A DNA stretch of 64,000 bases from the IMG/VR virus record IMGVR_UViG_3300013902_000267, one strand, 5' to 3'. The stretch comes from a virus (Duplodnaviria > Heunggongvirae > Uroviricota > Caudoviricetes). The notes below the pieces were generated by a model, which saw nothing but the letters and a program-made list of their open reading frames with translations, was not told where the DNA came from and ran no database searches. The position numbers were made by a program, and so were the translations under genes. Shown here one piece after another: positions 2,852 through 62,266 of this stretch (within the stretch, counting starts at the first letter, position 1; every line of letters starts with the position of its first letter).

Positions 2852-3491
2852 TAAACCAACATTAGTTGTTCCAAAAGGCAGACTATATAAAGGAATTAAA
2901 CATATGTTTAATTTATGTAATATTGATATGCCTGATGAGAATACTAGACAATATTATTTCCCTGATTGGAGTGATGATTGTGCATTATTTATAGCAAAAC
3001 CTAAAGCAATACCAGAATTAATTGCAAGTAAATTCTGTGAATTCAGTATGTGCGGATATGATATTATAAAGAATAGTGAATATGAAAATGATATAGAGCT
3101 CATTAAACACACAGGACTAAATAGAGTAAAAGTATGTTTAGCTTCACGATATAATATTGATGAATTGTGTCATATGAATAAACCAGTTATTTGTGCCACA
3201 GAATTTGATGTGTTAGCAAATCATTATTTTACAAAATTAGGAATTCCACATTATATATTAAATACAGCAGGTTCAACAGAAGGATATATTGATATTGGTG
3301 CAGATTGTATTATTGATGTTGTAGAAACAGGGAAAACACTTAAAGAAAATAATATTAATATATTAGATACACTGATTGATACTGATACATGTATATTTGA
3401 ACATGCATCATTAATGGATGCAATGTTACCATCAAATATACAAATAATTTATGATCAATGGATTAATAAGACATGGGAAACGAGAATGTAA
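2838..3491 (+). CDS. hisG: ATP phosphoribosyltransferase-like protein (HisG short form)
   Basis: N-terminal 'PTLVVPKGRLYKG' matches HisG 'L-I-A-x-PKGRL'. PRPP-binding signature 'DVVETGKTLKEN' matches HisG 'DLVSTGxTL'. 217 aa. Confidence 0.65.
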   Translation: MIMNNKPTLVVPKGRLYKGIKHMFNLCNIDMPDENTRQYYFPDWSDDCALFIAKPKAIPELIASKFCEFSMCGYDIIKNSEYENDIELIKHTGLNRVKVCLASRYNIDELCHMNKPVICATEFDVLANHYFTKLGIPHYILNTAGSTEGYIDIGADCIIDVVETGKTLKENNINILDTLIDTDTCIFEHASLMDAMLPSNIQIIYDQWINKTWETRM

Positions 3492-3934
3492 AATATATAG
3501 TAGAATTTGATGGTAATGATGGCACAGGAAAAACTTATACGATAAAAGTATTATCAAAAGTTTTTTCTAACTGTATTTTTATAGATAGAGGATTATTCAG
3601 TAAAGCAACATTGCTATCAGACGAAAATGATGAAATGTATAAGTATATTGATGATAATATTGATATGAATAGAATTTATATTATATTGGATGATTATCCA
3701 GAACATTGTCAAATGCTTATAAAAAGAAGAGGAGATTCTATTGAAGAGAAATATCATACAATAGAAGATTTAGAGTATTATCGTAAACAATTTACAAACT
3801 TATATGGTTATTGTTGTAAAAAGAATTATGATAATGTTTATTTAGTTACACGATTATTACCAGATCATGTTCAGGTAATGATTGATATTATTAAGAAATT
3901 TACTAATTTTAATAAGGAAAATAATAATGAGTAA
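3473..3934 (+). CDS. P-loop nucleoside monophosphate kinase-like protein (thymidylate/dNMP kinase family)
   Basis: 'IVEFDGNDGTGKTY' matches the 'IVFEGxDGSGKTT' kinase P-loop. 153 aa. Confidence 0.5.
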   Translation: MGNENVKYIVEFDGNDGTGKTYTIKVLSKVFSNCIFIDRGLFSKATLLSDENDEMYKYIDDNIDMNRIYIILDDYPEHCQMLIKRRGDSIEEKYHTIEDLEYYRKQFTNLYGYCCKKNYDNVYLVTRLLPDHVQVMIDIIKKFTNFNKENNNE

Positions 3935-6647: not shown

Positions 6648-6869
6648 AGACTTTATTTATATACGTTTATATAAAATACATAATGATTTTGTTTTAGAAG
6701 AACATTTATAAAAACTGTTTTAATAATTAGTGTAAAAGTGAGCACACAGAAAAAGAGAATTATGATAATTTCTGTAGAGCATGGATCAATACCAGCATTA
6801 TATAATGTACAGTTTATAGCAACGAATGTTCGAAATTTAAATTAACTATATGTCTAACATTCTTAATTT

Positions 6870-6942
6870 TTATTATTGGTAATAAGTGGCAAAACATGCT
6901 AGGAATAGTAAGTTATCGGTTCGAACCCGATATAATAAAGAT
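6870..6942 (+). tRNA. tRNA-like element (canonical T-arm and 7-bp acceptor stem; D and anticodon arms unresolved)
   Basis: Acceptor TTATTAT/ATAATAA. T-arm ATCGG-TTCGAAC-CCGAT. I could not fold a convincing anticodon arm. Possible degenerate or atypical tRNA. Confidence 0.3.
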
Positions 6943-7154
6943 AGAAAATGGATGATAGTTAATGATGCTAGATATAACGCTTATTATAGAAGTATTATAG
7001 GATTTGATTGAAGTGTGGATGTTTATTATACCTGTTCTATTTTTTAATAAAACAAATGTCCCTATAGATTGAAACATGGATTGAGATGAATATAATATGA
7101 TGTAATTTTAAGTTTGTTATATTTAGCATTAATTTTTTAATAAGAATTATTAAT

Positions 7155-21344: not shown

Positions 21345-21435
21345 ACCTTTTTAAAATTAATCAATAATTATATAGAAAAATGATGAAAAAGTTATATATT
21401 TTCTTAAAAATATTGATATTTTAACAATAAAAAAT

Positions 21436-21461
21436 GATTCCAGTAGAAGTATACTGGAATC
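21436..21461 (-). terminator. Terminator hairpin (GATTCCAGTA / TACTGGAATC) downstream of nrdD
   Basis: 10-bp perfect stem 30 nt beyond the nrdD stop codon. Confidence 0.5.
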
Positions 21462-21489
21462 ATTAAAATATTAAAATAAAATAGTTAAA

Positions 21490-24400
21490 TTAAATATTTT
21501 CTTTTGGTAAATAAACACGTGTCTTTTGTTCTTTCTGACGTCCATCAGACCAATTCGAAATTTTAGTTAAATCACAATATACCCGAACTTTCATTCTATT
21601 TTAAAGGGGTTAGACTATACCACTAACTTCTTGAGTTACATCTTGGTAGTCGTTGAGGGCTTTTATTTGTTTCGTATCAAATAACTATCCCTGCTGATTA
21701 TCCATTGTTATATCATTAGAATTTTTACACTTTGGTATCTAATGCTTTAGGAACTTCCAGCATATTCGATGTTTGCTATATATGTCACCATATATAGGGG
21801 CATTTAATTAAAAATTTACCCGATTATTCTGTCATATAAACTTACATGAACTGATCCACACTTTGGACATACACTAAATGGTGTCTTTGAAATATATCCA
21901 CAATCTTCACATTTACAATTAGGAACATTAAATGTCCAATATTGACAACCATTCTCTGCCGCAAATTTCATAATGTGAACAATCTGTTTCTTAGACAAGT
22001 GCTCTGACAAATTGAGATGCGCTGCTGAACCACCATCCAAAAAATCTCCAATATAGTTCTTACCATGTAAGGTAATCTTATCAAAGATTGACAATGTTTT
22101 ATCATTTGGTTTGAATATGTAAGACGCATACAGGTTAGTGTCTGTTGGTACCCAATCAACTCTGTTACATGATTACATAATAATTTTAATATTATTGTTG
22201 AATGTAATCTGATTTATTAATATATTCATTTAGATTTATTAAACCTGCATGAATTTTCCTATGACAATTTGAACATACACATACACATTTTTTTATTTCT
22301 TCATATAGTTTTTCTTTACCTCTCCCTCGATGTTTACCTATTGTAAAATCTTTTTCATTTGGATCTATATGATGAAAATCTATACAACATGGTTCATATT
22401 CACTACATATTATACATGGATTCTTTAATGAATATAACCATTCTGTTTTTCTTTTTTGTGAACGCTTATTTTTGTTCATTATGTATTTCAGGATGTGCTT
22501 TTCTCATCTATTTCCTATATAATTTTCTACATTCTTTACATACTGCACGTCCTTTTTCAAACATTTCTATAGACAATTCTTTACCACATTTATTACATAT
22601 TTTTGTTGTCATATATATTAAATTATGTTTTATTATTTATCACCGGAACATGACAAAAATAACATAACCCAATTATATTAATAAACGCTTAATTATTTCT
22701 AATCAAGTCTCTATGTTACCATAGAGTTCGGACTATTGCATAGTTTTGTTTCACAACAAAACTCCTTTTTATTTAGTCTCTCAGGCTGCCCATAACATTG
22801 TTGTTATTGCTTGCCCCTCGTTATCCTTACTACCGGTACCTAAGGTAATAAAATGTAAGGAACTTCGAGTCAATTAAAAAAGGTTTTACATGGACATTGT
22901 TATTGTTGTCTATCCATCTTCAGAATCCCAATTATAATTCTTTATTGCCAAACTTTCAGCTGGTATACATTCAGTATTGAACGTTAACTTATGACCGTTA
23001 AATGTACCTGCAGCTTCTTGATTCTTTTGCTTTATATATCCAAATATTGTTTGACAAAGTTTTTCATAATGAGGATTTACATTACAAGTAATTCCTAAGA
23101 ATTCTGCCATTTGATTAAGACCATTCAAACCAATTGTTAAATATTGCTTATTCAAATTAATAAACCCTGCTTTATATACAGGTAATAATCCTGCGTCATA
23201 CATATCCCAAAGAAGTTCATTATATGCTGTATGATATTTATATACTCTATCAAGAATATTACCAAAATATTCGCACATATCATCATAATGCTCTTCTACA
23301 TTTTCTTTTGTTACTCCAGATTTCTTAACACTGTTAAACCAGTCTTGAGTTATGCGACTAAGATTCAGGGTTATCACACTTTTACTTCCTGTTTGACGTT
23401 TTCTCCATATATTTCTATATGGTCCGGGTCATATCTTATGTTTATTTAAATAATAAACATTGCACTATTTCGGCATTTAAAACGATTCGTTTCCTAAAAC
23501 GTTACTACGTATCAATAGTAGTCCTACTCCACCTGCTCATCACTTAGGGGATGACCTCCACACACATTAATAATTTTTATATGTTCTACCTATTAACATA
23601 TTCCTAAAATTATTCATTAAATAATTTTTATATTTACCGATTTTTAATTCTTCAATAGATTTGCCATTATTATATTGTTCTCTTAAATAAACAACTTCAT
23701 CTTTAGATAACAATGGTAACTTCTATTTACATTTATCAGTTCTAATAGGCATTTTTACATGCATATATGATTTTCCAAATAATATTTTATTAAATCCACT
23801 CCATGAATATAAATTACTATATTCTTTAAAAATATCATCTTCTTTTTCACCATTTACAAAATATCTTATTCTTATGTTTAATACTTCTTCATCAGATAAA
23901 TTCTTAGAATTTGCATGCATATTTCCTCTACGTGTTCTTCGATCTGATTTATAAAAATCATTTACTTTATCTGTATTATATTCTATACCAATTTCAGGTC
24001 TTGTATAATAATGCCAATATTTTGAAAATCCACTTTTTGACATTCTATCTTTATACATTTCATATACTTCTCCAAAAGTATATTTCATAGAATAACGTAT
24101 TTTTCTTAATTCTAATAATTCATTATCATTTAATATTGCTTTGGGATGCTCCTCCCCAACTTTTATTATAGTTGCAGAATGTCCACCCAATGTAGAATTA
24201 TATCCATTATTATAACTATCATATAATTTAATGTAATATATTTCTTTATTATCAGCTTCATCCTAATTAGGAACATTATCTTCTAATATTGAAAAATTTG
24301 ATTCATTAATATTATATTTTCTCATTGCTCTATATAATTTATAATCACTATGTTTCATATCATTTAAATGTTCTCTTACTCTTATATGATAATGATGTGT

Positions 24401-27400
24401 CTACCCAATATATACTTTTCCATTAGGAAATGATATTTTATAAATTGTAAATATTTTATTCATATATTATAAATGTAAAATTATAACATATTTATATTAA
24501 CTTGGCTCGGTATTACCATGCATATAGTTTCACAACTTATGTTTAGGCTTCACCGATGCATTAATATCGCTATATTAATACATTGCTTGATTAGCAATTA
24601 AGCACATAAAGGACCCAAGTTGATCCCTAAATTTCCATTTGTGAAGTTGAATTCCTTTGTTTGTATCTTATTCTTAAGTCTGCAGTTATGTGTTATATTT
24701 CCATTAGGCATTAAGAAATATGGTTCAAGATTCTTATCGCAGAGTTCTACACAATAATAATCTTTTGGTTCATCAAGATTTACAACTTCAACCTTTGTAA
24801 TTTTTCTTATAACAATGTCTTGATCTACATCTTTAAAATCATTTCTAAACATACCCATATATTGTCCATACTCAAAGATAAGTTGATCTCCTGTTTGAAG
24901 CAAATATGCTTGCTTATCTTTAATCATCTTATCATCATCAATAATAGGGAATATATGATCCGGTGTAACTCTCATTACATTTCGTGATTCATCCGGATTA
25001 AAATCGTCTGGAGCGAAATAAATTCTTACTTCTTGAACTGCTTCTGCTTTTACAAACTTAGCATTTACCCATTCACCTGTACATTTACCTGTTGTACCAT
25101 TAAAATTCATATGATATACATTAATAATTTCATCCTTATGCTTTTCATATGCATTTTTAAATGACTCAACCATATATGCGTTTGAACCTGCGTTTTCTTC
25201 CATATTACAAGGTTCTACATACATGAATGGAGTATCACCATCGAAACAACAACTTGATAATGAATCAACTGTATCTGACATATATGTAAAGAATGAATGA
25301 CCTCTTGCATATTCATCCGCCACAAAATCTGCAGATTCCTTATCAAGGAATTCTCCATCCTTATATACTAATGCGAAACTTTCCCATTTATATTCTATAT
25401 AGTTCGTTACACTATATACGTTCATAATAATGAACTGCTTTATGTTACCATAAAGATTAGACTATATCACAATCCTATAAATATAGGATTCTCCCCATTT
25501 CCACTCACTTGAGTGTACTTCCTTTCGGAATAGTCGTTGAACCTTATTATATAAATGAATATTTATGACCATAATATAATCTATTTGCATTTATCGATTT
25601 TACTAATCCTGATATACATGCAGTTCCTCCAATATTTTTAATAACTTCGGACATTGATGAATATATTATATTATTATCTAAACATTTTATTTTCTTTGGA
25701 AACGTTTTTCCCTTCATCGTATTACCAAATGTTTTAATAGAATATAATTCATTCTCTGATTGTGTGCACCATTCTAAATTATCTACTCTATTATCTGATC
25801 TATTACCATTTAAATGATTTACAAATGGTTTATTTTCAGGATTTGGTATAAATTCTTGAGCAACAAGTCTATGACATAAATATCTAGTTTTAATAGAATT
25901 TTGCATTAATGATATTCTTAAATAACCATCTAATGTATATTCTACTTTTAATGGTTTACCTTTATACGGACGTAATCCACCCCATCTACAAGGCACCATT
26001 CTATCTTTACTTCTGAAATTACCTAAATTACTAACTTCAAATGCGCCATCATATCCTGTTATACTTTTCCAAATTTCTTCCATAATATTCTCTTATATAA
26101 TCTTGGTTGCTGATTATCTAATAACTTCGCATATTTATTAGAGTTCCCAGCAGTTAAAGGAGTTTTTCAATAATAAATTACTTTATTATGCCGCAGATTG
26201 ATTTACGGGGAAGGTGATTATCGTACGAAGACGTTCCTTATTAAACCATATCATGAAGTCTTTCTGTAACCATGAAACACTTTCCCAACATGGTCTTGTT
26301 CCTTCTTCATCAGGAAATACAAATTCACCAAACATACCTTCAAAGAACGGTTTATCAAAATAAGAGAAATTTACAACATTTTTTCTTCTACATAAATCGT
26401 TACTTTATGTACGTTACTATTTGTAACTGCTCTATGATTTCCATAGACGATTAACGAATTTCACGTTAAAAGGGTTTGTTTAAACCGTTTAGACTATATC
26501 ACCAAATTTAATTTTCTTAAATTTGCACCTACACTTCCATAACACTTGTTATGTACTCTACTAACTCATTTAAAGTTTTCGATAGTCGTTGAACTTTTAT
26601 CCTTGTAGGATAATTAGCTGCGTATGATTACCCAATCTTTATCGTTTTTACAATCTGATAGCCGTTATACTATCTGCTACTATCTATGTTACCATGATAT
26701 GCTGTAGATAAAGCTCTAAGGGACTTCCCGCAATTCAAGGTGTTTATTAACGTCAGCACATGTAATTTCTCTTATAATTTAATTATTACCAAAATTATGT
26801 ATTTTATACATGTGACAATTTTTACAATATGTTATAAGATTATCTATGTTATTAAGTTCTTTATTTTTTATCGCTAAATTAAATAATTCATCAAAATTAT
26901 CAGTAGGATTTAATTCTGGATGTTCTGATAATAAATTATGAAATAATATTTTAAATGGAACTATATGATGAACTTGAAGATTTTCATGACAACCGCATAG
27001 CTAACAAGTATTATGATCTCTCTCTATAACTTCTGGAACTAATCGATTAAAATATGTTCTTATTTTATTACCTAATCTTGTAGTATCTGTTGTATATGGA
27101 ATATTAGTAATATTTAAACTATTTAATACTCTATTAATTACAGCTATTGTACAATTATATCTCCGTGCCAATTCTGTTTTTGATATTGACTATTCAATAT
27201 ATAAATTATATAATTTTTTATAATCATTAAAATCTTCTGGTATTTCTTTTTTATGATAATTCCACATAGATTCTGCAAAAGTACGTCTTTTAATCCCATT
27301 ATGTTTTAAATGACTTCTTATAGTAGTTGCTGAACAGTTAAATATTTTACCTATTTCTACTGTAGATTTACCATCATTATATAATTTTATTATTTCCTAA

Positions 27401-32779: not shown

Positions 32780-34816
32780 TTACTTTTCAATCATCTTAAT
32801 AGATCTCTTAACGAATTTCGCTAAATCTTCACCTTGAAGCAAACCATACTGCAACAATGCAATATCAATCAACTCGTGAATATGATTATCTGTATGTGCA
32901 TGATTATTGATGATTTCTTTCTTCTTCTCTAGGACTTTATCAAGTTCTTCCTTAATAGGTTTCTTTGCATCATCATTTTCTGCGTTTTCAAGGCGTGAAT
33001 TAATGTCTTTAACTTGTTCATTAATTTCATTAATTGCAGGTCCAATTTCTTTTTCTGCAATCTTAATAATTTTCTTAACAACCTTTGAATCTGCATTAAT
33101 TACAAATTTAATATTTGCATTATCCTCAAGATACATACCAGCATTATTAAGCATAGACATTTCTTTCATACGACGGAAGAACTCATCTGCGATAATAGTA
33201 ATAGGCAAAGCATCCTTGCCATCTTGCTTAACCTGGAATTGATGTGTAATCTTAGGAAGATTCAAATCAATACAATCAAACAAAGAAATAAGCATACTAA
33301 TAATATTATCAGAAATTGGTTTAACTTTCTTTGTATCATCTTCTTTCTGAATAAGTTCCTCTGGTACTGCAGAGTCAATTCTCTTAAATGTTACATTCTT
33401 ATCCTGAAGTTTCATCTCGAATGTATGAACTTCAAATGCACCATATTGACTATTAAACAACAAGATGTTATATCCATATTCCTTCAATGCTTCAATATAT
33501 GTATATTGTGTAGCAGTATCATATGTATAAAGATATACAATCTTTCCATTCTTATCTTTCTGTGTCTCTAATACCTTATCATAATATTCATCAAAAGTAT
33601 ACATCTTATTATCTGTATCAACAAGAAGAATAATATCCTTTGCCTTGTCAAAAATATTAGGCTCCGTTACAACACCAAGGTTAATAAATGTTTTAATCGT
33701 CTCCCATTTCTTTTCATATGTTTCACGATCTTTCTTCATAAGAGTTCTCAATGAACTCATTACCTTATTTGTAATATGTGAACTAATCTTCTTAACATTC
33801 GCATCATTCTGAAGAACTGATCTTGAAACATTCAAAGGAATATCAGGGGAATCAATCACACCATGAAGAAGACTCAAATAATCTGGCAATACACCATCAA
33901 CATCATCTGTAACGAATACGCGGTTACAATACAAATTCAAATGTCTACGTTCAAAAATAGGATGTTTTTGATCGAATGCTGGGAAATAAAGAATACCCTT
34001 AAATGTAAATGGTGTATCAATATTAATATGAATCCAGAAAAGAGGGTCAGGTCTACCAGGAAATGTATCCTTATAAAACTTAATATAATCTTCATCTTTA
34101 AGTTCTGATGCAGACTTCAACCACAATGGTTCATCTCTTGTAATCAAATTTTCTGTAGGCTCTGGATATGTAACTTCACCTGTAGACGCATCTGTTGTAG
34201 GTGCAGGAATATCTTTAAGATAAATCTTTACAGGAAGATATTCAGCATATTTCTTAAGAAGTTCAGAAAGTTTTGAATTATTTACATATTCCTTATACTC
34301 ATCAGAAATATGCATAATTACATCTGTACCAACAGTTTCTTTATCATCATCTACAAGAGTAAATTCTGTTGTTCCTTCACAAGTCCAACGACATGCTGTT
34401 GAACCTTCCTTATAACTCTTTGTGACAATCTCAACCTTTGAACTCACCATGAAACTTGAATAGAATCCAAGTCCAAAATGTCCAATAATCTGAGTATCTT
34501 TATATTTCTCAAGAAAATCATTAGCACCCGAAAATGCAATCTGATTAATATACTTCTCTACTTCATCAGCAGTCATACCGATACCCATATCAGATACAGT
34601 AATAGTATTATCTTCATGATTAATAGATACTGTAACTTTCAAATCATCGGGATTTGCATTATACTCATTTGCGCTAATAACCTTAACAAGTTTCTCTGTT
34701 GCATCAACTGCATTACTAACAATCTCACGGATAAAAATATCCTGATCGTTGTACATGAACTTTTTTATCAATGGAAAAATATCCTAACTAGTAACTCCAA
34801 TATTACCTTTTTGCAT
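32780..34816 (-). CDS. htpG: Hsp90-family molecular chaperone HtpG, with a TAG codon at position 11
   Basis: 'IFIREIVSNAVDA' HATPase signature. Reading through TAG (plus 34784-34786) restores a Bacteroides-type N-terminus 'MQKGNIGVTS-Q-DIFPLIKKFMYND' (matched from memory). The track ORF 32780..34771 starts at an internal Met. Confidence 0.8.
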
Positions 34817-34894
34817 ATTTAATTATCAATAAAATTTTTATTTAATTATTATACTCTAATATAAGTTAATTGTTTGAATTATTTTAAAATAAAA

Positions 34895-34923
34895 AAGGGT
34901 ATAACCTTTAGAGTTATACCCTT
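34895..34923 (-). terminator. Terminator hairpin (AAGGGTATAAC / GTTATACCCTT)
   Basis: 11-bp perfect stem with a U-rich flank on the minus strand. Separates htpG from the upstream 565-nt ORF-free region. Confidence 0.55.
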
Positions 34924-34929
34924 TAAAAA

Positions 34930-35495
34930 TTAATAGTATGTTTTTAATAATTATTCAAAATCTAAAAGTCCAATAAAATCTCCGCTTTAAATTAACCTCC
35001 AATAACACAGGGACATTCATTACTCATTAATCATCCAATTAATCTATAATACTATTTTCATCTCATTTTCAACTCCTAAACTTATATCAAACTTTTATTT
35101 TAAAATAAAAATCTTTATAAAAATTATCATCTCATTTTCAATTCCAATATATTACTTCATAATCTTCAAATTAACTTTCTTGGGTATAATACTACTGTAC
35201 TATTAAAATAAAGTTTCAATAATACCTTCCTAATAAACTGAAATAACTAATAAATAGTATCTAATTTATGTTTTTACTTGATTTATGGGATTATCAGAAA
35301 TATGTATATTGTTTATTCTTAAATATATTTAATCGTTCATATTCTATTATATATTACTACAACTATACATATATTCATATCATATTTCTAATTATAAATA
35401 TCTATTGATACTTATCTGATAAAGGAAATGGTCATAAAATCATAATGGTTTAGCCTATAGATTCAGTTATACTATTATTTTTTATATTATATCTT
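34930..35495. other. ORF-free AT-rich region (about 565 nt) with two direct repeats TCATCTCATTTTCAA(C/T)TCC (35058-35077 and 35127-35145)
   Basis: No ORF of useful length in any frame, even allowing TAG as sense. Direct repeats 69 nt apart. Candidate ncRNA, 3' UTR or replication-origin-like region. Confidence 0.35.
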
Positions 35496-35921
35496 TTACT
35501 TATTAGTACTATCCTCTTTATTATTTTGAGCAATATCTTCATTCATCATTCGATAAATACGCTCAGGTGATTCATTGAATGTTGCAGACTCAATTGTCTC
35601 ATTATTAAAGTAAATAGTTGATACATACTTTCCAGATTCCTCTGTTTGAGAAATAACAGAAATAATATCTGTATTTACAATCATTACAGAATTATCGTCA
35701 TTCGAATGAAGCTTCAAAAAATCTGTATTACCAAAATCAATAATATTTTGATAAATTTTCTCGGGTGTTTCATTCACTGTAATACTATCAATATTATCAT
35801 CATCAAAATATACAGTTGTTACTTTATCTTCTGTACATACAATACTAATCTTATTAATACGTATAATAATAACACTGTTATCTTCCTTTGAATGAAGTTT
35901 CAAAAACTTATTTGTTGACAT
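35496..35921 (-). CDS. Hypothetical protein with an internal tandem duplication (two about 60-aa repeats)
   Basis: 'FLKLHSKEDNSVIIIRINKISIV' and 'FLKLHSNDDNSVMIVNTDIISVI' repeat. Confidence 0.4.
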   Translation of the reverse strand: MSTNKFLKLHSKEDNSVIIIRINKISIVCTEDKVTTVYFDDDNIDSITVNETPEKIYQNIIDFGNTDFLKLHSNDDNSVMIVNTDIISVISQTEESGKYVSTIYFNNETIESATFNESPERIYRMMNEDIAQNNKEDSTNK

Positions 35922-49829: not shown

Positions 49830-50134
49830 TATTAAATTATGTTAAAATTAAACGTTTATAATTATTAGATATTTAACTTAATAACAACATATACAAACTT
49901 TATAATATATGTGAAGTTAACCTAAGAAACTATATTATAATATAGAAGATAATTATCTAAATCTTATCTTATCTTTTTTTTAAAAATATAAATTAATTTA
50001 AATTCTATATGCATAATTTATAAACTAAATTCTTCCAATGACTTAAATTTATAAATACATAATGTATATAAAATAAATATATTCATATTTTAATATTTTA
50101 TTTATTATATTGATTAACTTATAAAAAGTTTATA

Positions 50135-62091: not shown

Positions 62092-62187
62092 TGGATATAG
62101 ATGGACTCGAACCACCATGTATCTGCCCTAGAATTATGATACAAACTAACATCATATTAGTCGCGTTTACCATTTCGCCATATATCC
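62092..62187 (-). tRNA. Type II (long-variable-arm) tRNA, about 96 nt. The anticodon loop TATGATG gives TGA (Ser) if canonical, but position 33 is atypical
   Basis: Acceptor GGATATA/TATATCC. T-arm GGTGG-TTCGAGT-CCATC. Anticodon stem ACTAA/TTAGT. Unusually long variable arm (stem TGTATC/GATACA with a 14-nt loop). Confidence 0.45.
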
Positions 62188-62193
62188 ATATAG

Positions 62194-62266
62194 CAGGCCT
62201 GATGAGATTCGAACTCACAACAACATGATTAAAATTCGTGTGCTCTACCAATTGAGCTACAGGCCC
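62194..62266 (-). tRNA. tRNA-Lys (anticodon TTT)
   Basis: 5' GGGCCTGTAGCTCAATTGGTAGAGCA... T-arm GTGAG-TTCGAAT-CTCAT. Anticodon loop ATTTTAA. 73 nt. One C-A mismatch in the anticodon stem. Confidence 0.65.

What the first reader, a model, noticed from the sequence alone, without database searches (positions are those of the whole stretch)
34930..35495. 565-nt ORF-free region with direct repeats between two minus-strand terminators: ncRNA or origin candidate
Genes elsewhere abut or overlap. Here no frame of useful length exists even with TAG as sense. Two copies of TCATCTCATTTTCAA(C/T)TCC lie 69 nt apart. On the minus strand the region lies after gene 35496-35921 and before a strong hairpin (34895-34923) and the htpG promoter. 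It could be a structured 3' UTR or ncRNA, an iteron-like replication origin, or a packaging signal.
Basis: seen in the sequence. Interest (0 to 1): 0.5.

Follow-up and report, generated by a model that had tools for sequence, protein, structure and literature searches.

The report
Large structured RNA in Lak megaphages
The gene-free stretch is not a replication origin: it most likely encodes a roughly 600-base folded RNA that matches no described RNA family, is kept in the giant Lak phages of gut Prevotella and their relatives, and has no known function.

Summary
The window is Prevotella megaphage Lak-B2/B4/B7 (100% identity). Region 34823-35495 is the largest ORF-free gap in the window with TAG read as sense. 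It sits between a 141-aa gene and htpG, both on the minus strand.

The gap persists at 630-980 nt in every related phage locus that extends far enough downstream. These range from Lak A/B/C to lineages whose neighbouring protein is only 40-57% identical. A second clade of IMG/VR phage contigs also has it.

Conservation is in blocks separated by variable, indel-rich domains. The blocks are linked by long-range helices with many compensatory base changes:
- H1: 7 of 11 pairs.
- P1: 7 of 14 pairs in Lak, 8 of 21 in clade 2.
- Helices A and B of clade 2: 9 of 16 pairs.

Shuffled and slid controls fall well below these values. G-U pairs, UNCG-capped optional hairpins and a terminal intrinsic terminator place the RNA on the gene strand. 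No Rfam family matches.

GC skew does not flip here. Only one of the two claimed terminators exists.

Verdict: a new family of large structured RNA, function unknown. It is always linked to an upstream gene whose product has a LytTR-like predicted fold.

The parts
34885..35495 (-). Whole element: about 600 nt of conserved non-coding sequence, read as a structured RNA. The 5' end is not mapped and lies somewhere between the stop codon at 35496-35498 and about 35463. The 3' end is the terminator T-run.
   Evidence: There is one copy per genome in all 15 complete Lak genomes. Syntenic gaps of 630-980 nt occur in divergent relatives. nhmmer hits the window only here, at E 8.5e-99.
35458..35462 (-). 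H0 5' strand, AUCUA, at the start of conserved block 1.
   Evidence: It pairs with UAGAU at 35263..35259 and is invariant in the Lak clade. The helix is 9 bp in L013. In L020 it is CAUCUAAG/CUUAGAUG, 8 bp, with a compensatory U-A to C-G change (read from sequence).
35446..35457 (-). Conserved asymmetric loop UAGGCUAAACCA between H0 and H1. Clade 2 has GGCCGUAAGCC at the same place.
   Evidence: Nearly invariant in alignments A2, A8 and the anchored alignment. Also present in L020.
35434..35445 (-). H1 5' strand, UUAUGAUUUUAU.
   Evidence: It pairs with 35277..35266. 7 of 11 pairs show compensatory changes. The covariation score is 0.49 against 0.21 +/- 0.03 in shuffles (0 of 500 reach it), and slid controls are at most 0.054. 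In a column-permutation null, 0 of 200 trials gave a helix with 5 or more covarying pairs.
35278..35433 (-). Variable domain 1, closed by H1.
   Evidence: 67.7% identity between LakB and LakA with 6 gaps, against about 90% in the flanking blocks. Length and sequence differ between lineages, and L022 has a roughly 130-nt insertion.
35266..35277 (-). H1 3' strand, GUAAAAACAUAA.
35259..35263 (-). H0 3' strand, UAGAU.
35229..35255 (-). P1 5' strand, AUUUAUUAGUUAUUUCAGUUUAUUAGG.
   Evidence: An unbiased duplex search pairs it with 34969..34942 at equivalent positions in LakB, LakA, L016, L017 and L061. L020 has a perfect 13-bp duplex, AAUAUUAGACAAC/GUUGUCUAAUAUU, at the same place. 7 of 14 pairs are compensatory, against at most 3 when slid. 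Shuffles reach the observed values 0 of 1000 times (percent paired) and 2 of 1000 times (double changes). The register was anchored by hand.
35160..35228 (-). Conserved block 2, including GGAAGGUAUUAUUGAAA, AAUAGUACA and UAUUAUACCCA.
   Evidence: 89.8% identity between LakB and LakA over 35277-35160. The motifs GAAGG, UUGAAA and AUACCCA recur in L017, L020 and clade 2.
35040..35159 (-). Variable domain 2.
   Evidence: Both full repeat copies occur only in Lak-B loci. Lak A/C keep only a TTGAAAATGA core. The domain between block 2 and the core is 62-73 nt in the L017 group, 167-170 nt in Lak A/B/C and 218-232 nt in the L013/L016 group, and about 35 nt in L020.
35007..35018 (-). Invariant core GAAUGUCCCUGU.
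   Evidence: It is identical in every Lak-clade locus and in all but two clade 2 members: L050 has GAACGUCCCUGU and L071 has GAAUGUCCCUAU. L020 has AAUGUCCCUAU. It is unique in the window, with 0.10 matches expected by chance.
34970..35006 (-). Core hairpin interior with the conserved UGGAG(G). GUCC (35014..35011) can pair with GGAC (34971..34968).
   Evidence: 91.3% identity between LakB and LakA. GUCC/GGA(C/U/A) can form in every lineage, but there is no covariation, so this helix is inferred only.
34942..34969 (-). P1 3' strand, ACUUUUAGAUUUUGAAUAAUUAUUAAAA.
   Evidence: It is positionally equivalent to the P1 3' strand of clade 2.
34885..34924 (-). Intrinsic terminator: a 13-bp stem with loop UCUAAAG, followed by a T-run.
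   Evidence: The stem sequence differs completely between lineages but still pairs (GGGUAUAAC/GUUAUACCC, CACCCGAUC/GAUUGGGUG, GUCACUAGUUC/GAAUUAGUGAC).
35496..35921 (-). Upstream 141-aa gene that is always linked to the element. It is a tandem duplication with a LytTR-like predicted fold.
   Evidence: Homologs lie directly upstream of the element in every locus examined that carries the element.

Best explanation
The minus strand of about 35495-34885 encodes a roughly 600-nt multi-domain structured RNA. It belongs to a family found in Lak megaphages and related phages.

Shown:
- The sequence is non-coding.
- It is single-copy and syntenic.
- It is conserved in blocks separated by variable domains.
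- The blocks are held together by long-range helices that keep pairing through compensatory changes. H0 and H1 close a 5' domain. P1 joins the segment before block 2 to the segment after the invariant GAAUGUCCCUGU core.
- An intrinsic terminator ends it.

Inferred:
- It is transcribed together with, or just behind, the upstream LytTR-like gene. No terminator separates them, and in L020 helix H0 overlaps that gene's stop codon.
- It folds into a compact architecture and accumulates as a stable RNA that acts as a folded scaffold. It may work with a protein partner or as an oligomer, in the manner of other large phage-associated RNAs. It is not read as a leader of htpG or as a DNA site.

Its biochemical function is unknown.
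For: Identity and context:
- The window is Lak-B2/B4/B7.
- There is one copy in each of the 15 complete Lak genomes.

Non-coding status:
- It is the largest ORF-free gap with TAG as sense.
- No conserved frame exists, and indels of 1-4 nt occur.
- The ATG inside the core is ACG in L050.

Conservation:
- Blocks are 90-93% identical between LakB and LakA, against 78.6% for the adjacent gene and 67.7% for variable domain 1.
- The gap and the motifs persist where the neighbouring protein is only 40-57% identical.

Covariation in the Lak clade:
- H1 has 7 of 11 compensatory pairs; 0 of 500 shuffles reach the covariation score, and slid controls show 0-1 pairs with a change on both sides.
- In the column-permutation null, 0 of 200 trials match the best helix.
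- P1 has 7 of 14 compensatory pairs, and L020 has a 13-bp perfect duplex at the same place.

Covariation in clade 2:
- The whole structure has 11 compensatory pairs against 3.0 +/- 1.3 in shuffles. 8 of them are in P1, whose strands lie about 285 nt apart.
- Helices A and B have 9 of 16 compensatory pairs against 3.4 +/- 1.3.

Strand:
- In clade 2, 95.7% of cells pair on the sense strand against 79.8% on the antisense strand, with 109 G-U cells.
- Optional hairpins are capped by UUCG or UACG.
- The terminator is on the minus strand.

Literature: Devoto et al. [quoted passage not shown]
Against: - No expression data were examined for this particular locus, and the Devoto figures are not held.
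- The 5' end and any promoter are not defined.
- The Lak sequences are about 80% A+U, so many helices could form by chance. The single-sequence fold z-score is only -1.9 on either strand.
- The alignments rest on few independent lineages: about 4 in Lak plus L020, and about 4-5 in clade 2.
- The P1 register in Lak was anchored by hand.
- Watson-Crick covariation alone would also fit single-stranded DNA.
- Homology between the Lak clade and clade 2 rests on synteny, the shared 12-mer and a common architecture. nhmmer E-values between the clades are weak, 0.04-0.16.
- A trans-acting role is inference only.
Confidence: 0.75

Rival explanations
1. It is a cis-acting structured 3' UTR. The fold is part of the mRNA of the upstream LytTR-like gene or operon. 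It acts only on that mRNA, through stability, 3' end protection or feedback by the encoded protein, and not as a separate RNA.
For: No terminator lies between the gene and the element. In L020 helix H0 overlaps the gene's stop codon. The upstream gene family is constant while the downstream gene changes.
Against: About 600 nt with several invariant unpaired motifs and nested long-range helices is far more than is known for 3' end protection. The element is 1.4 times (Lak) to nearly 3 times (clade 2) the length of the gene it would serve. LytTR domains are DNA binders, an established property of AgrA and ComE.
Confidence: 0.15
2. It is regulatory DNA. The region carries operator or promoter sites for the adjacent LytTR-like DNA-binding protein. 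The direct repeats are its binding sites, controlling htpG or the downstream module.
For: The predicted fold of the 141-aa protein matches the LytTR domains of AgrA and ComE (E 5e-4, target TM-score 0.7). Such proteins bind pairs of direct repeats, which is established for AgrA. The repeats are non-random.
Against: The repeats occur only in Lak-B, while the protein and the element are widespread. Their 69-nt spacing is unlike the roughly 21-nt spacing of LytTR sites. DNA sites do not explain compensatory changes between positions 170-290 nt apart. Pfam does not detect LytTR by sequence.
Confidence: 0.05
3. It is a 5' leader of the downstream gene, such as a riboswitch, attenuator or thermosensor. 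The terminator would be its expression platform, controlling read-through into htpG.
For: A conserved fold is followed directly by an intrinsic terminator about 78 nt upstream of htpG.
Against: The downstream gene is htpG in Lak but a family-B DNA-polymerase-like gene in clade 2 and yet other genes in L020. A conserved TATAAT-like box lies between the terminator and htpG in all Lak-clade loci. The size is 3-5 times that of known riboswitches. No Rfam cis-regulatory family matches.
Confidence: 0.03
4. It is a replication origin with iterons, or a packaging signal, acting as double-stranded DNA.
For: It is A+T-rich and ORF-free, with two exact-core direct repeats. In clade 2 it lies upstream of a DNA polymerase gene.
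Against: There are only two repeat copies, they are confined to Lak-B, and they lie in a variable domain. GC skew stays constant at -0.23 to -0.24 through 32-38 kb and flips at about 20 kb and 62 kb instead. The conservation pattern is pairing-preserving and strand-asymmetric. The region ends in a terminator.
Confidence: 0.02

Closest known systems
ROOL RNA (Rumen-Originating, Ornate, Large; Rfam family)
   Same: It is a bacterial/phage-associated non-coding RNA of about 580 nt with unknown function, multiple domains and long-range helices, known from rumen and gut metagenomes. PMC5737381 and PMC12286853 came up; only their titles and abstracts were seen there, and the size and the rumen and phage associations are from my own knowledge.
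   Different: No match to the Rfam model, even at E up to 1-10, on the window or on the G+C-richer homologs. The conserved motifs differ. The carriers are Bacteroidota-infecting megaphages. The element is linked to a LytTR-like gene rather than to tRNAs.
GOLLD RNA (Rfam family)
   Same: It is a very large, ornate RNA often carried by phages, with unknown function. The abstract of PMC12286853 states that GOLLD, ROOL and OLE form homo-oligomeric RNA complexes.
   Different: No covariance-model match. GOLLD is about 800 nt, with different motifs and hosts.
OLE RNA with its protein partners
   Same: It is a large structured RNA of about 600 nt that works with a dedicated partner protein (OAP), according to the abstract of PMC3413148. 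That the partner gene lies next to the RNA gene is from my own knowledge. Here too a small protein gene is invariably adjacent.
   Different: There is no sequence or model similarity. OLE is chromosomal in extremophilic Firmicutes. The adjacent protein here has a LytTR-like fold, not a membrane protein.
'Large, highly expressed intergenic regions' of Lak phages (Devoto et al., bioRxiv 10.1101/356790)
   Same: Same genomes. [quoted passage not shown] This locus is probably one of them.
   Different: In the text held here (the 2018 bioRxiv version), the passages found report expression only, with no family, conservation, structure or coordinates. I could not verify that this particular region is among those shown.

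Membership tests
Any Rfam 15 family (including ROOL, GOLLD, OLE, raiA, HEARO, RNase P, tmRNA, 6S, riboswitches) | Match to the family covariance model at or above its gathering score. | tested here: not met
   The whole window gave only 3 tRNA matches. Region 34700-35700 at E up to 10 gave only two chance-level matches: snoR25 at 20 bits against a gathering score of 50, and DapZ at 18.6 against 56, the latter on the terminator. Eight relative loci gave no matches at E up to 1.
Structured non-coding RNA (general) | Conserved sequence without a conserved reading frame. | tested here: met
Structured non-coding RNA (general) | Base pairs maintained by compensatory substitutions, above controls. 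| tested here: met
   H1, the permutation null, P1 in Lak plus L020, and clade 2.
Structured non-coding RNA (general) | Evidence of transcription of the proposed strand. | not testable with these tools
   The support is indirect only: the terminator lies on the minus strand, and the literature makes a general statement on expressed Lak intergenic regions.
Iteron-type replication origin | An array of several regularly spaced iterons that is conserved among relatives. | tested here: not met
   There are two copies only, 69 nt apart. The full repeats are absent outside Lak-B.
Iteron-type replication origin | A strand-composition (GC skew) switch at the locus. | tested here: not met
   Skew is -0.228, -0.239 and -0.226 in the three 2-kb windows spanning 32-38 kb. 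Sign changes occur at about 20 kb and 62 kb. The whole-genome profile was not computed.
Riboswitch / 5' leader attenuator | Lies in the 5' UTR of a consistent class of regulated genes, with no promoter in between. | tested here: not met
   The downstream gene differs between clades. A conserved TATAAT-like box lies downstream of the terminator.
LytTR DNA-binding domain (for the linked 141-aa protein) | Sequence match to Pfam LytTR. | tested here: not met
   No Pfam family at E up to 0.1.
LytTR DNA-binding domain (for the linked 141-aa protein) | The all-beta LytTR fold. | tested here: inconclusive
   The AlphaFold model has pLDDT 86. The top Foldseek PDB hits are 3d6w, 4g4k, 4xqn and 3bs1 (AgrA and other LytTR domains), at E 5e-4 to 5e-3, with TM-scores of 0.53-0.58 (query) and 0.68-0.73 (target). 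DNA binding was not tested.

The most novel reading that the evidence does not exclude
This is a previously undescribed class of large 'ornate' RNA specific to Lak-type megaphages and their relatives. It would function as a self-contained machine: either a ribonucleoprotein with the invariably adjacent LytTR-fold protein, or an RNA-only oligomeric assembly like ROOL and GOLLD. It would be needed during infection of Prevotella. It would then be one of the abundant 'intergenic' transcripts seen in Lak metatranscriptomes.
Probability: 0.3. Interest if true: 0.85.

Novelty: new variant of a known kind. Interest (0 to 1): 0.7.

Why it matters
Bacterial and phage RNAs longer than 500 nt with conserved, covariation-supported architecture are rare. 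To my knowledge, each such class has become a target for structural and functional work. The recent cryo-EM study of GOLLD, ROOL and OLE is one example (PMC12286853).

Lak megaphages are widespread in human and animal guts, have not been cultured, and were already reported to express large intergenic regions strongly without explanation. This locus gives one of those regions a concrete description:
- boundaries;
- a multi-helix model;
- invariant motifs;
- a phylogenetic spread;
- a candidate partner gene.

That makes it directly testable by metatranscriptome mapping, chemical probing, cryo-EM and binding assays.

Tried and rejected
- Rfam, at gathering and permissive thresholds, on the window and on eight relative loci: nothing relevant.
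- Single-sequence folding z-scores: uninformative, -1.9 on both strands, because of the roughly 80% A+U content.
- Mini-ORF idea (ATG inside the core, MSL...): rejected. The peptide length varies from 3 to more than 30 codons, 1-nt indels occur, and L050 has ACG instead of ATG.
- The 66- and 47-codon stop-free runs on the plus strand: low-complexity, no start codon for the longer one, and not kept in other lineages.
- Hairpin H2 (AAUUAG/UUAGUU), first considered: now thought wrong, because its 5' arm is needed for H0, which L020 supports.
- A 5'-3' closing helix AAUAGUAU/AUACUAUU in LakB: the register is not conserved in other lineages, so it is left as a possibility only. An alternative partner, UGUUAU just after the core, scored 2 covarying pairs, which is within the null.
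- Pairing of the AUACCC motif with the upstream GG: not conserved.
- MAFFT local and global alignments misplace the L017 group and L020. An anchored segment-wise alignment was used instead.
- Search for the element in INPHARED phages beyond Lak: none found.
- L056, L057 and L059, distant relatives of the protein: they have a gap but no recognisable motifs.
- Promoter assignment for the RNA: not resolved. TATAAT-like boxes are everywhere in this composition (24 found against 20.6 expected).
- Supplementary files of Devoto et al.: not held.

Full report
**1. Where the window comes from**

A 2.5-kb query around the finding is 100% identical to Prevotella phage Lak-B2, B4 and B7. It is 99.3-99.7% identical to the other Lak-B genomes and about 82% identical to Lak-A1, A2 and C1. 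These are megaphage genomes of 540-552 kb, assembled from human and baboon faeces, and the records carry no annotation. Genes around the finding lie on the minus strand. The htpG reading frame starts at 34816 and has an in-frame TAG at codon 11. This agrees with the TAG-to-Gln recoding published for Lak.

**2. The observation**

With TAA and TGA as the only stops, 34823-35495 is the longest stretch of the window not covered by an open frame of at least 70 codons.
- The longest ORF with a start codon is 46 aa, on the plus strand.
- Two stop-free runs of 66 and 47 codons on the T-rich plus strand encode low-complexity I/F/Y/L strings and are not kept in other lineages.
- The two 19-nt repeats are at the stated coordinates and are non-random.
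- One strong intrinsic-terminator-like hairpin lies at 34924..34894 on the minus strand.
- No second terminator follows the upstream gene, so 'between two terminators' is not confirmed.

**3. Conservation**

The element is single-copy in all 15 complete Lak genomes.

Between Lak-B and Lak-A the identities are as follows:

| Segment | Identity |
|---|---|
| Upstream 141-aa gene | 78.6% |
| Leader, block 1 and H1 5' strand | 93.5% |
| Block 2 | 89.8% |
| Core and 3' domain | 91.3% |
| Variable domain 1 | 67.7%, with indels |

I then collected more distant relatives through homologs of the 141-aa protein and their contigs.
- In every Lak-like locus the order TelA, 130 aa, 79 aa, 141 aa, gap, htpG is kept, with a gap of 630-980 nt.
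- This holds where the protein is only 49-57% identical.
- The gap sequences align.
- They share an invariant GAATGTCCCTGT, followed by TGGAG, and further blocks.
- A JGI contig (L020, protein 40% identical) has block 1 and the core.

A protein-profile scan of IMG/VR and DNA pattern scans gave a second clade: L049, L050, L051, L053, L058, L071, L072 and L073.
- Its homolog of the protein is a single unit of 66-72 aa.
- The downstream gene is a family-B DNA-polymerase-like gene.
- The intervening 600 nt carry the same 12-mer core in the same orientation, AUACCCA and GAAGG...UUGAAA motifs, and a terminal terminator.

The pattern scan of the metagenome collection found only Lak relatives plus five obvious chance hits in G+C-rich DNA. 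The core 12-mer occurs once in the window.

**4. Not coding**

Indels of 1-4 nt separate close relatives. No frame is conserved. The ATG inside the core is ACG in L050, and the peptide that would follow has no constant length.

**5. RNA structure: clade 2**

RNAalifold on eight distinct sequences predicts a long-range helix, P1, whose strands are about 285 nt apart. P1 encloses nearly the whole 3' two-thirds of the element.

| Measure | Result |
|---|---|
| Cells that form a standard pair | 95.7% of 625 |
| Pairs with changes on both sides | 11 |
| Same measure in shuffles | 3.0 +/- 1.3 (0 of 500 reach 11) |
| Same measure when the 3' partners are slid | 3-7 |
| Compensatory pairs in P1 | 8 |

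The 5' third has two nested helices.
- Helix A is UGUGAAAUUGUG/CACAAUGGCACA, with a conserved tandem A-G mismatch.
- Helix B is CCAGAA/UUCUGG, which becomes UUAGAU/AUCUAA, CCAGAU/AUCUGG or UCGGAU/AUCCGA in other members.
- Together they have 9 of 16 pairs with changes on both sides, against 3.4 +/- 1.3 in shuffles (0 of 500) and 1-4 when slid.

Members differ by whole optional hairpins, two of them capped by UUCG or UACG tetraloops. On the opposite strand only 79.8% of the cells would pair, because of 109 G-U cells.

**6. RNA structure: Lak clade**

I used an alignment anchored on the invariant motifs and made an unbiased scan for stacked, consistently paired columns.
- The best helix, H1, has all five core pairs covarying: UUUAU/AUAAA in Lak A/B, CAAAC/GUUUG in L013/L016, and UAUGU/ACAUA in L017.
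- None of 200 column permutations gave a helix with 5 covarying pairs.
- Extended to 11 pairs, H1 has 7 compensatory pairs. Its covariation score is 0.49, against 0.21 +/- 0.03 in shuffles (0 of 500) and at most 0.054 when slid.
- In window coordinates, H1 joins 35445..35434 to 35277..35266 and closes variable domain 1.

Outside H1, the invariant AUCUA of block 1 pairs with the invariant UAGAU (35462..35458 with 35263..35259). This helix, H0, is 9 bp in L013. In L020 it is CAUCUAAG/CUUAGAUG, a compensatory change in an independent lineage.

A duplex search between the segment after H0 and the segment after the core finds a duplex of about 21-25 bp at equivalent positions in LakB, LakA, L016, L017 and L061. 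In L020 it finds a perfect 13-bp G+C-containing duplex at the same place.
- With a gap-free register anchored on UAUUAG and UUU(U/C)G, this P1 has 7 of 14 pairs with changes on both sides.
- Slid controls give at most 3.
- Shuffles reach the observed values 0 of 1000 times (percent paired) and 2 of 1000 times (double changes).
- The register was chosen by hand, so this count leans towards the model.

The topology is the same in both clades. An outer helix carries a conserved GGC(N)UAA(A)(G)CC loop on its 5' side. Next come an inner helix and variable domain 1. Then follow the P1 5' strand, block 2, variable domain 2, the core hairpin, the P1 3' strand, a tail and the terminator. The terminator stems also differ completely between lineages while still pairing.

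**7.

Both copies lie in variable domain 2.
- Lak A/C keep only a TTGAAAATGA core.
- In the L013/L016 and L017 lineages the variable domain holds unrelated sequence of a different length, 218-232 nt and 62-73 nt against 167-170 nt in Lak A/B/C.
- The full repeat occurs only in Lak-B loci.

The repeats are a lineage-specific duplication inside a variable domain, not the functional core.

**8. Rival readings**

- Origin or packaging signal. GC skew is flat across the locus and flips at about 20 kb and 62 kb, together with the gene strand. There is no conserved repeat array, and the constraint is on pairing.
- Leader of htpG. The downstream gene is not conserved. A conserved TATAAT-like box lies between the terminator and htpG.
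- Operator DNA for the neighbouring protein. The protein model (pLDDT 86) resembles the LytTR DNA-binding domains of AgrA and ComE, so this had to be considered. It does not explain long-range covariation, and the repeats are not conserved.
- cis-acting 3' UTR. This cannot be excluded. No terminator separates gene and element, and in L020 H0 overlaps the stop codon.

**9. Comparison with what is known**

No Rfam family matches.

In size, phage association and architecture the nearest analogues are ROOL, GOLLD and OLE, but there is no homology to any of them.

[quoted passage not shown] They gave no further characterisation in the text held here. I could not check whether this locus is one of those shown.

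**10. Verdict**

This is a real, conserved feature. It is most likely a new family of large structured RNA of about 600 nt on the minus strand, tied to an upstream LytTR-fold protein gene.

Shown: non-coding conservation, synteny, covarying long-range helices, strand asymmetry and the terminator.

Inferred: transcription, independence from the upstream mRNA, and any function.

Noticed in passing
window 35496-35921 (-); L049 2501-2719; L051 2495-2695: The upstream 141-aa protein is a tandem duplication of a unit of about 62 aa. Its AlphaFold model resembles LytTR DNA-binding domains (AgrA, ComE), although Pfam finds nothing. In clade 2 the homolog is a single unit of 66-72 aa. The gene is always directly upstream of the RNA element.
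   Followed up: partly
window 34894-34924 (-) and homologous terminators in L001, L013, L016: The terminator loop CUAAAG is kept in Lak A/B and in L013/L016, although the stem sequences are entirely different. The loop may have a role of its own. It is not kept in L017 or in clade 2.
   Followed up: no
L022 about 3680-3810: One relative carries an insertion of about 130 nt, richer in G+C (GGGTTGAGCTCACCC...), inside variable domain 1 of the element.
   Followed up: no
window 62092-62187 (-): A tRNA-like gene with an insertion of about 25 nt in the variable-loop region. The Rfam tRNA model finds it (45 bits) but ARAGORN does not. It sits next to tRNA-Lys at 62193-62266. This is consistent with the 'enigmatic introns' reported for Lak tRNAs.
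   Followed up: no
window 34784-34786 (-): An in-frame TAG at codon 11 of htpG. This is direct evidence in the window for TAG read as sense.
   Followed up: yes
window 6648-7100, 21351-21815, 26405-26778, 49842-50134: Further ORF-free gaps of 290-465 nt with TAG as sense. They may be other expressed intergenic regions of the kind reported for Lak.
   Followed up: no
window about 20000 and about 62000: The GC-skew sign changes coincide with switches of the coding strand. They are candidates for replication landmarks or simply for transcription-unit boundaries.
   Followed up: no
window about 34830-34860 (-) and homologous positions in L013, L016, L017: A conserved TATAAT-like box followed by TTAAAYAAAAAT lies between the terminator and the htpG start in all Lak-clade loci. 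It is a plausible htpG promoter.
   Followed up: partly
L056, L057, L059, about 2897-3230: More distant relatives of the protein (33-38% identity) are also followed by a non-coding gap of 330-470 nt, but none of the RNA motifs is recognisable there.
   Followed up: partly
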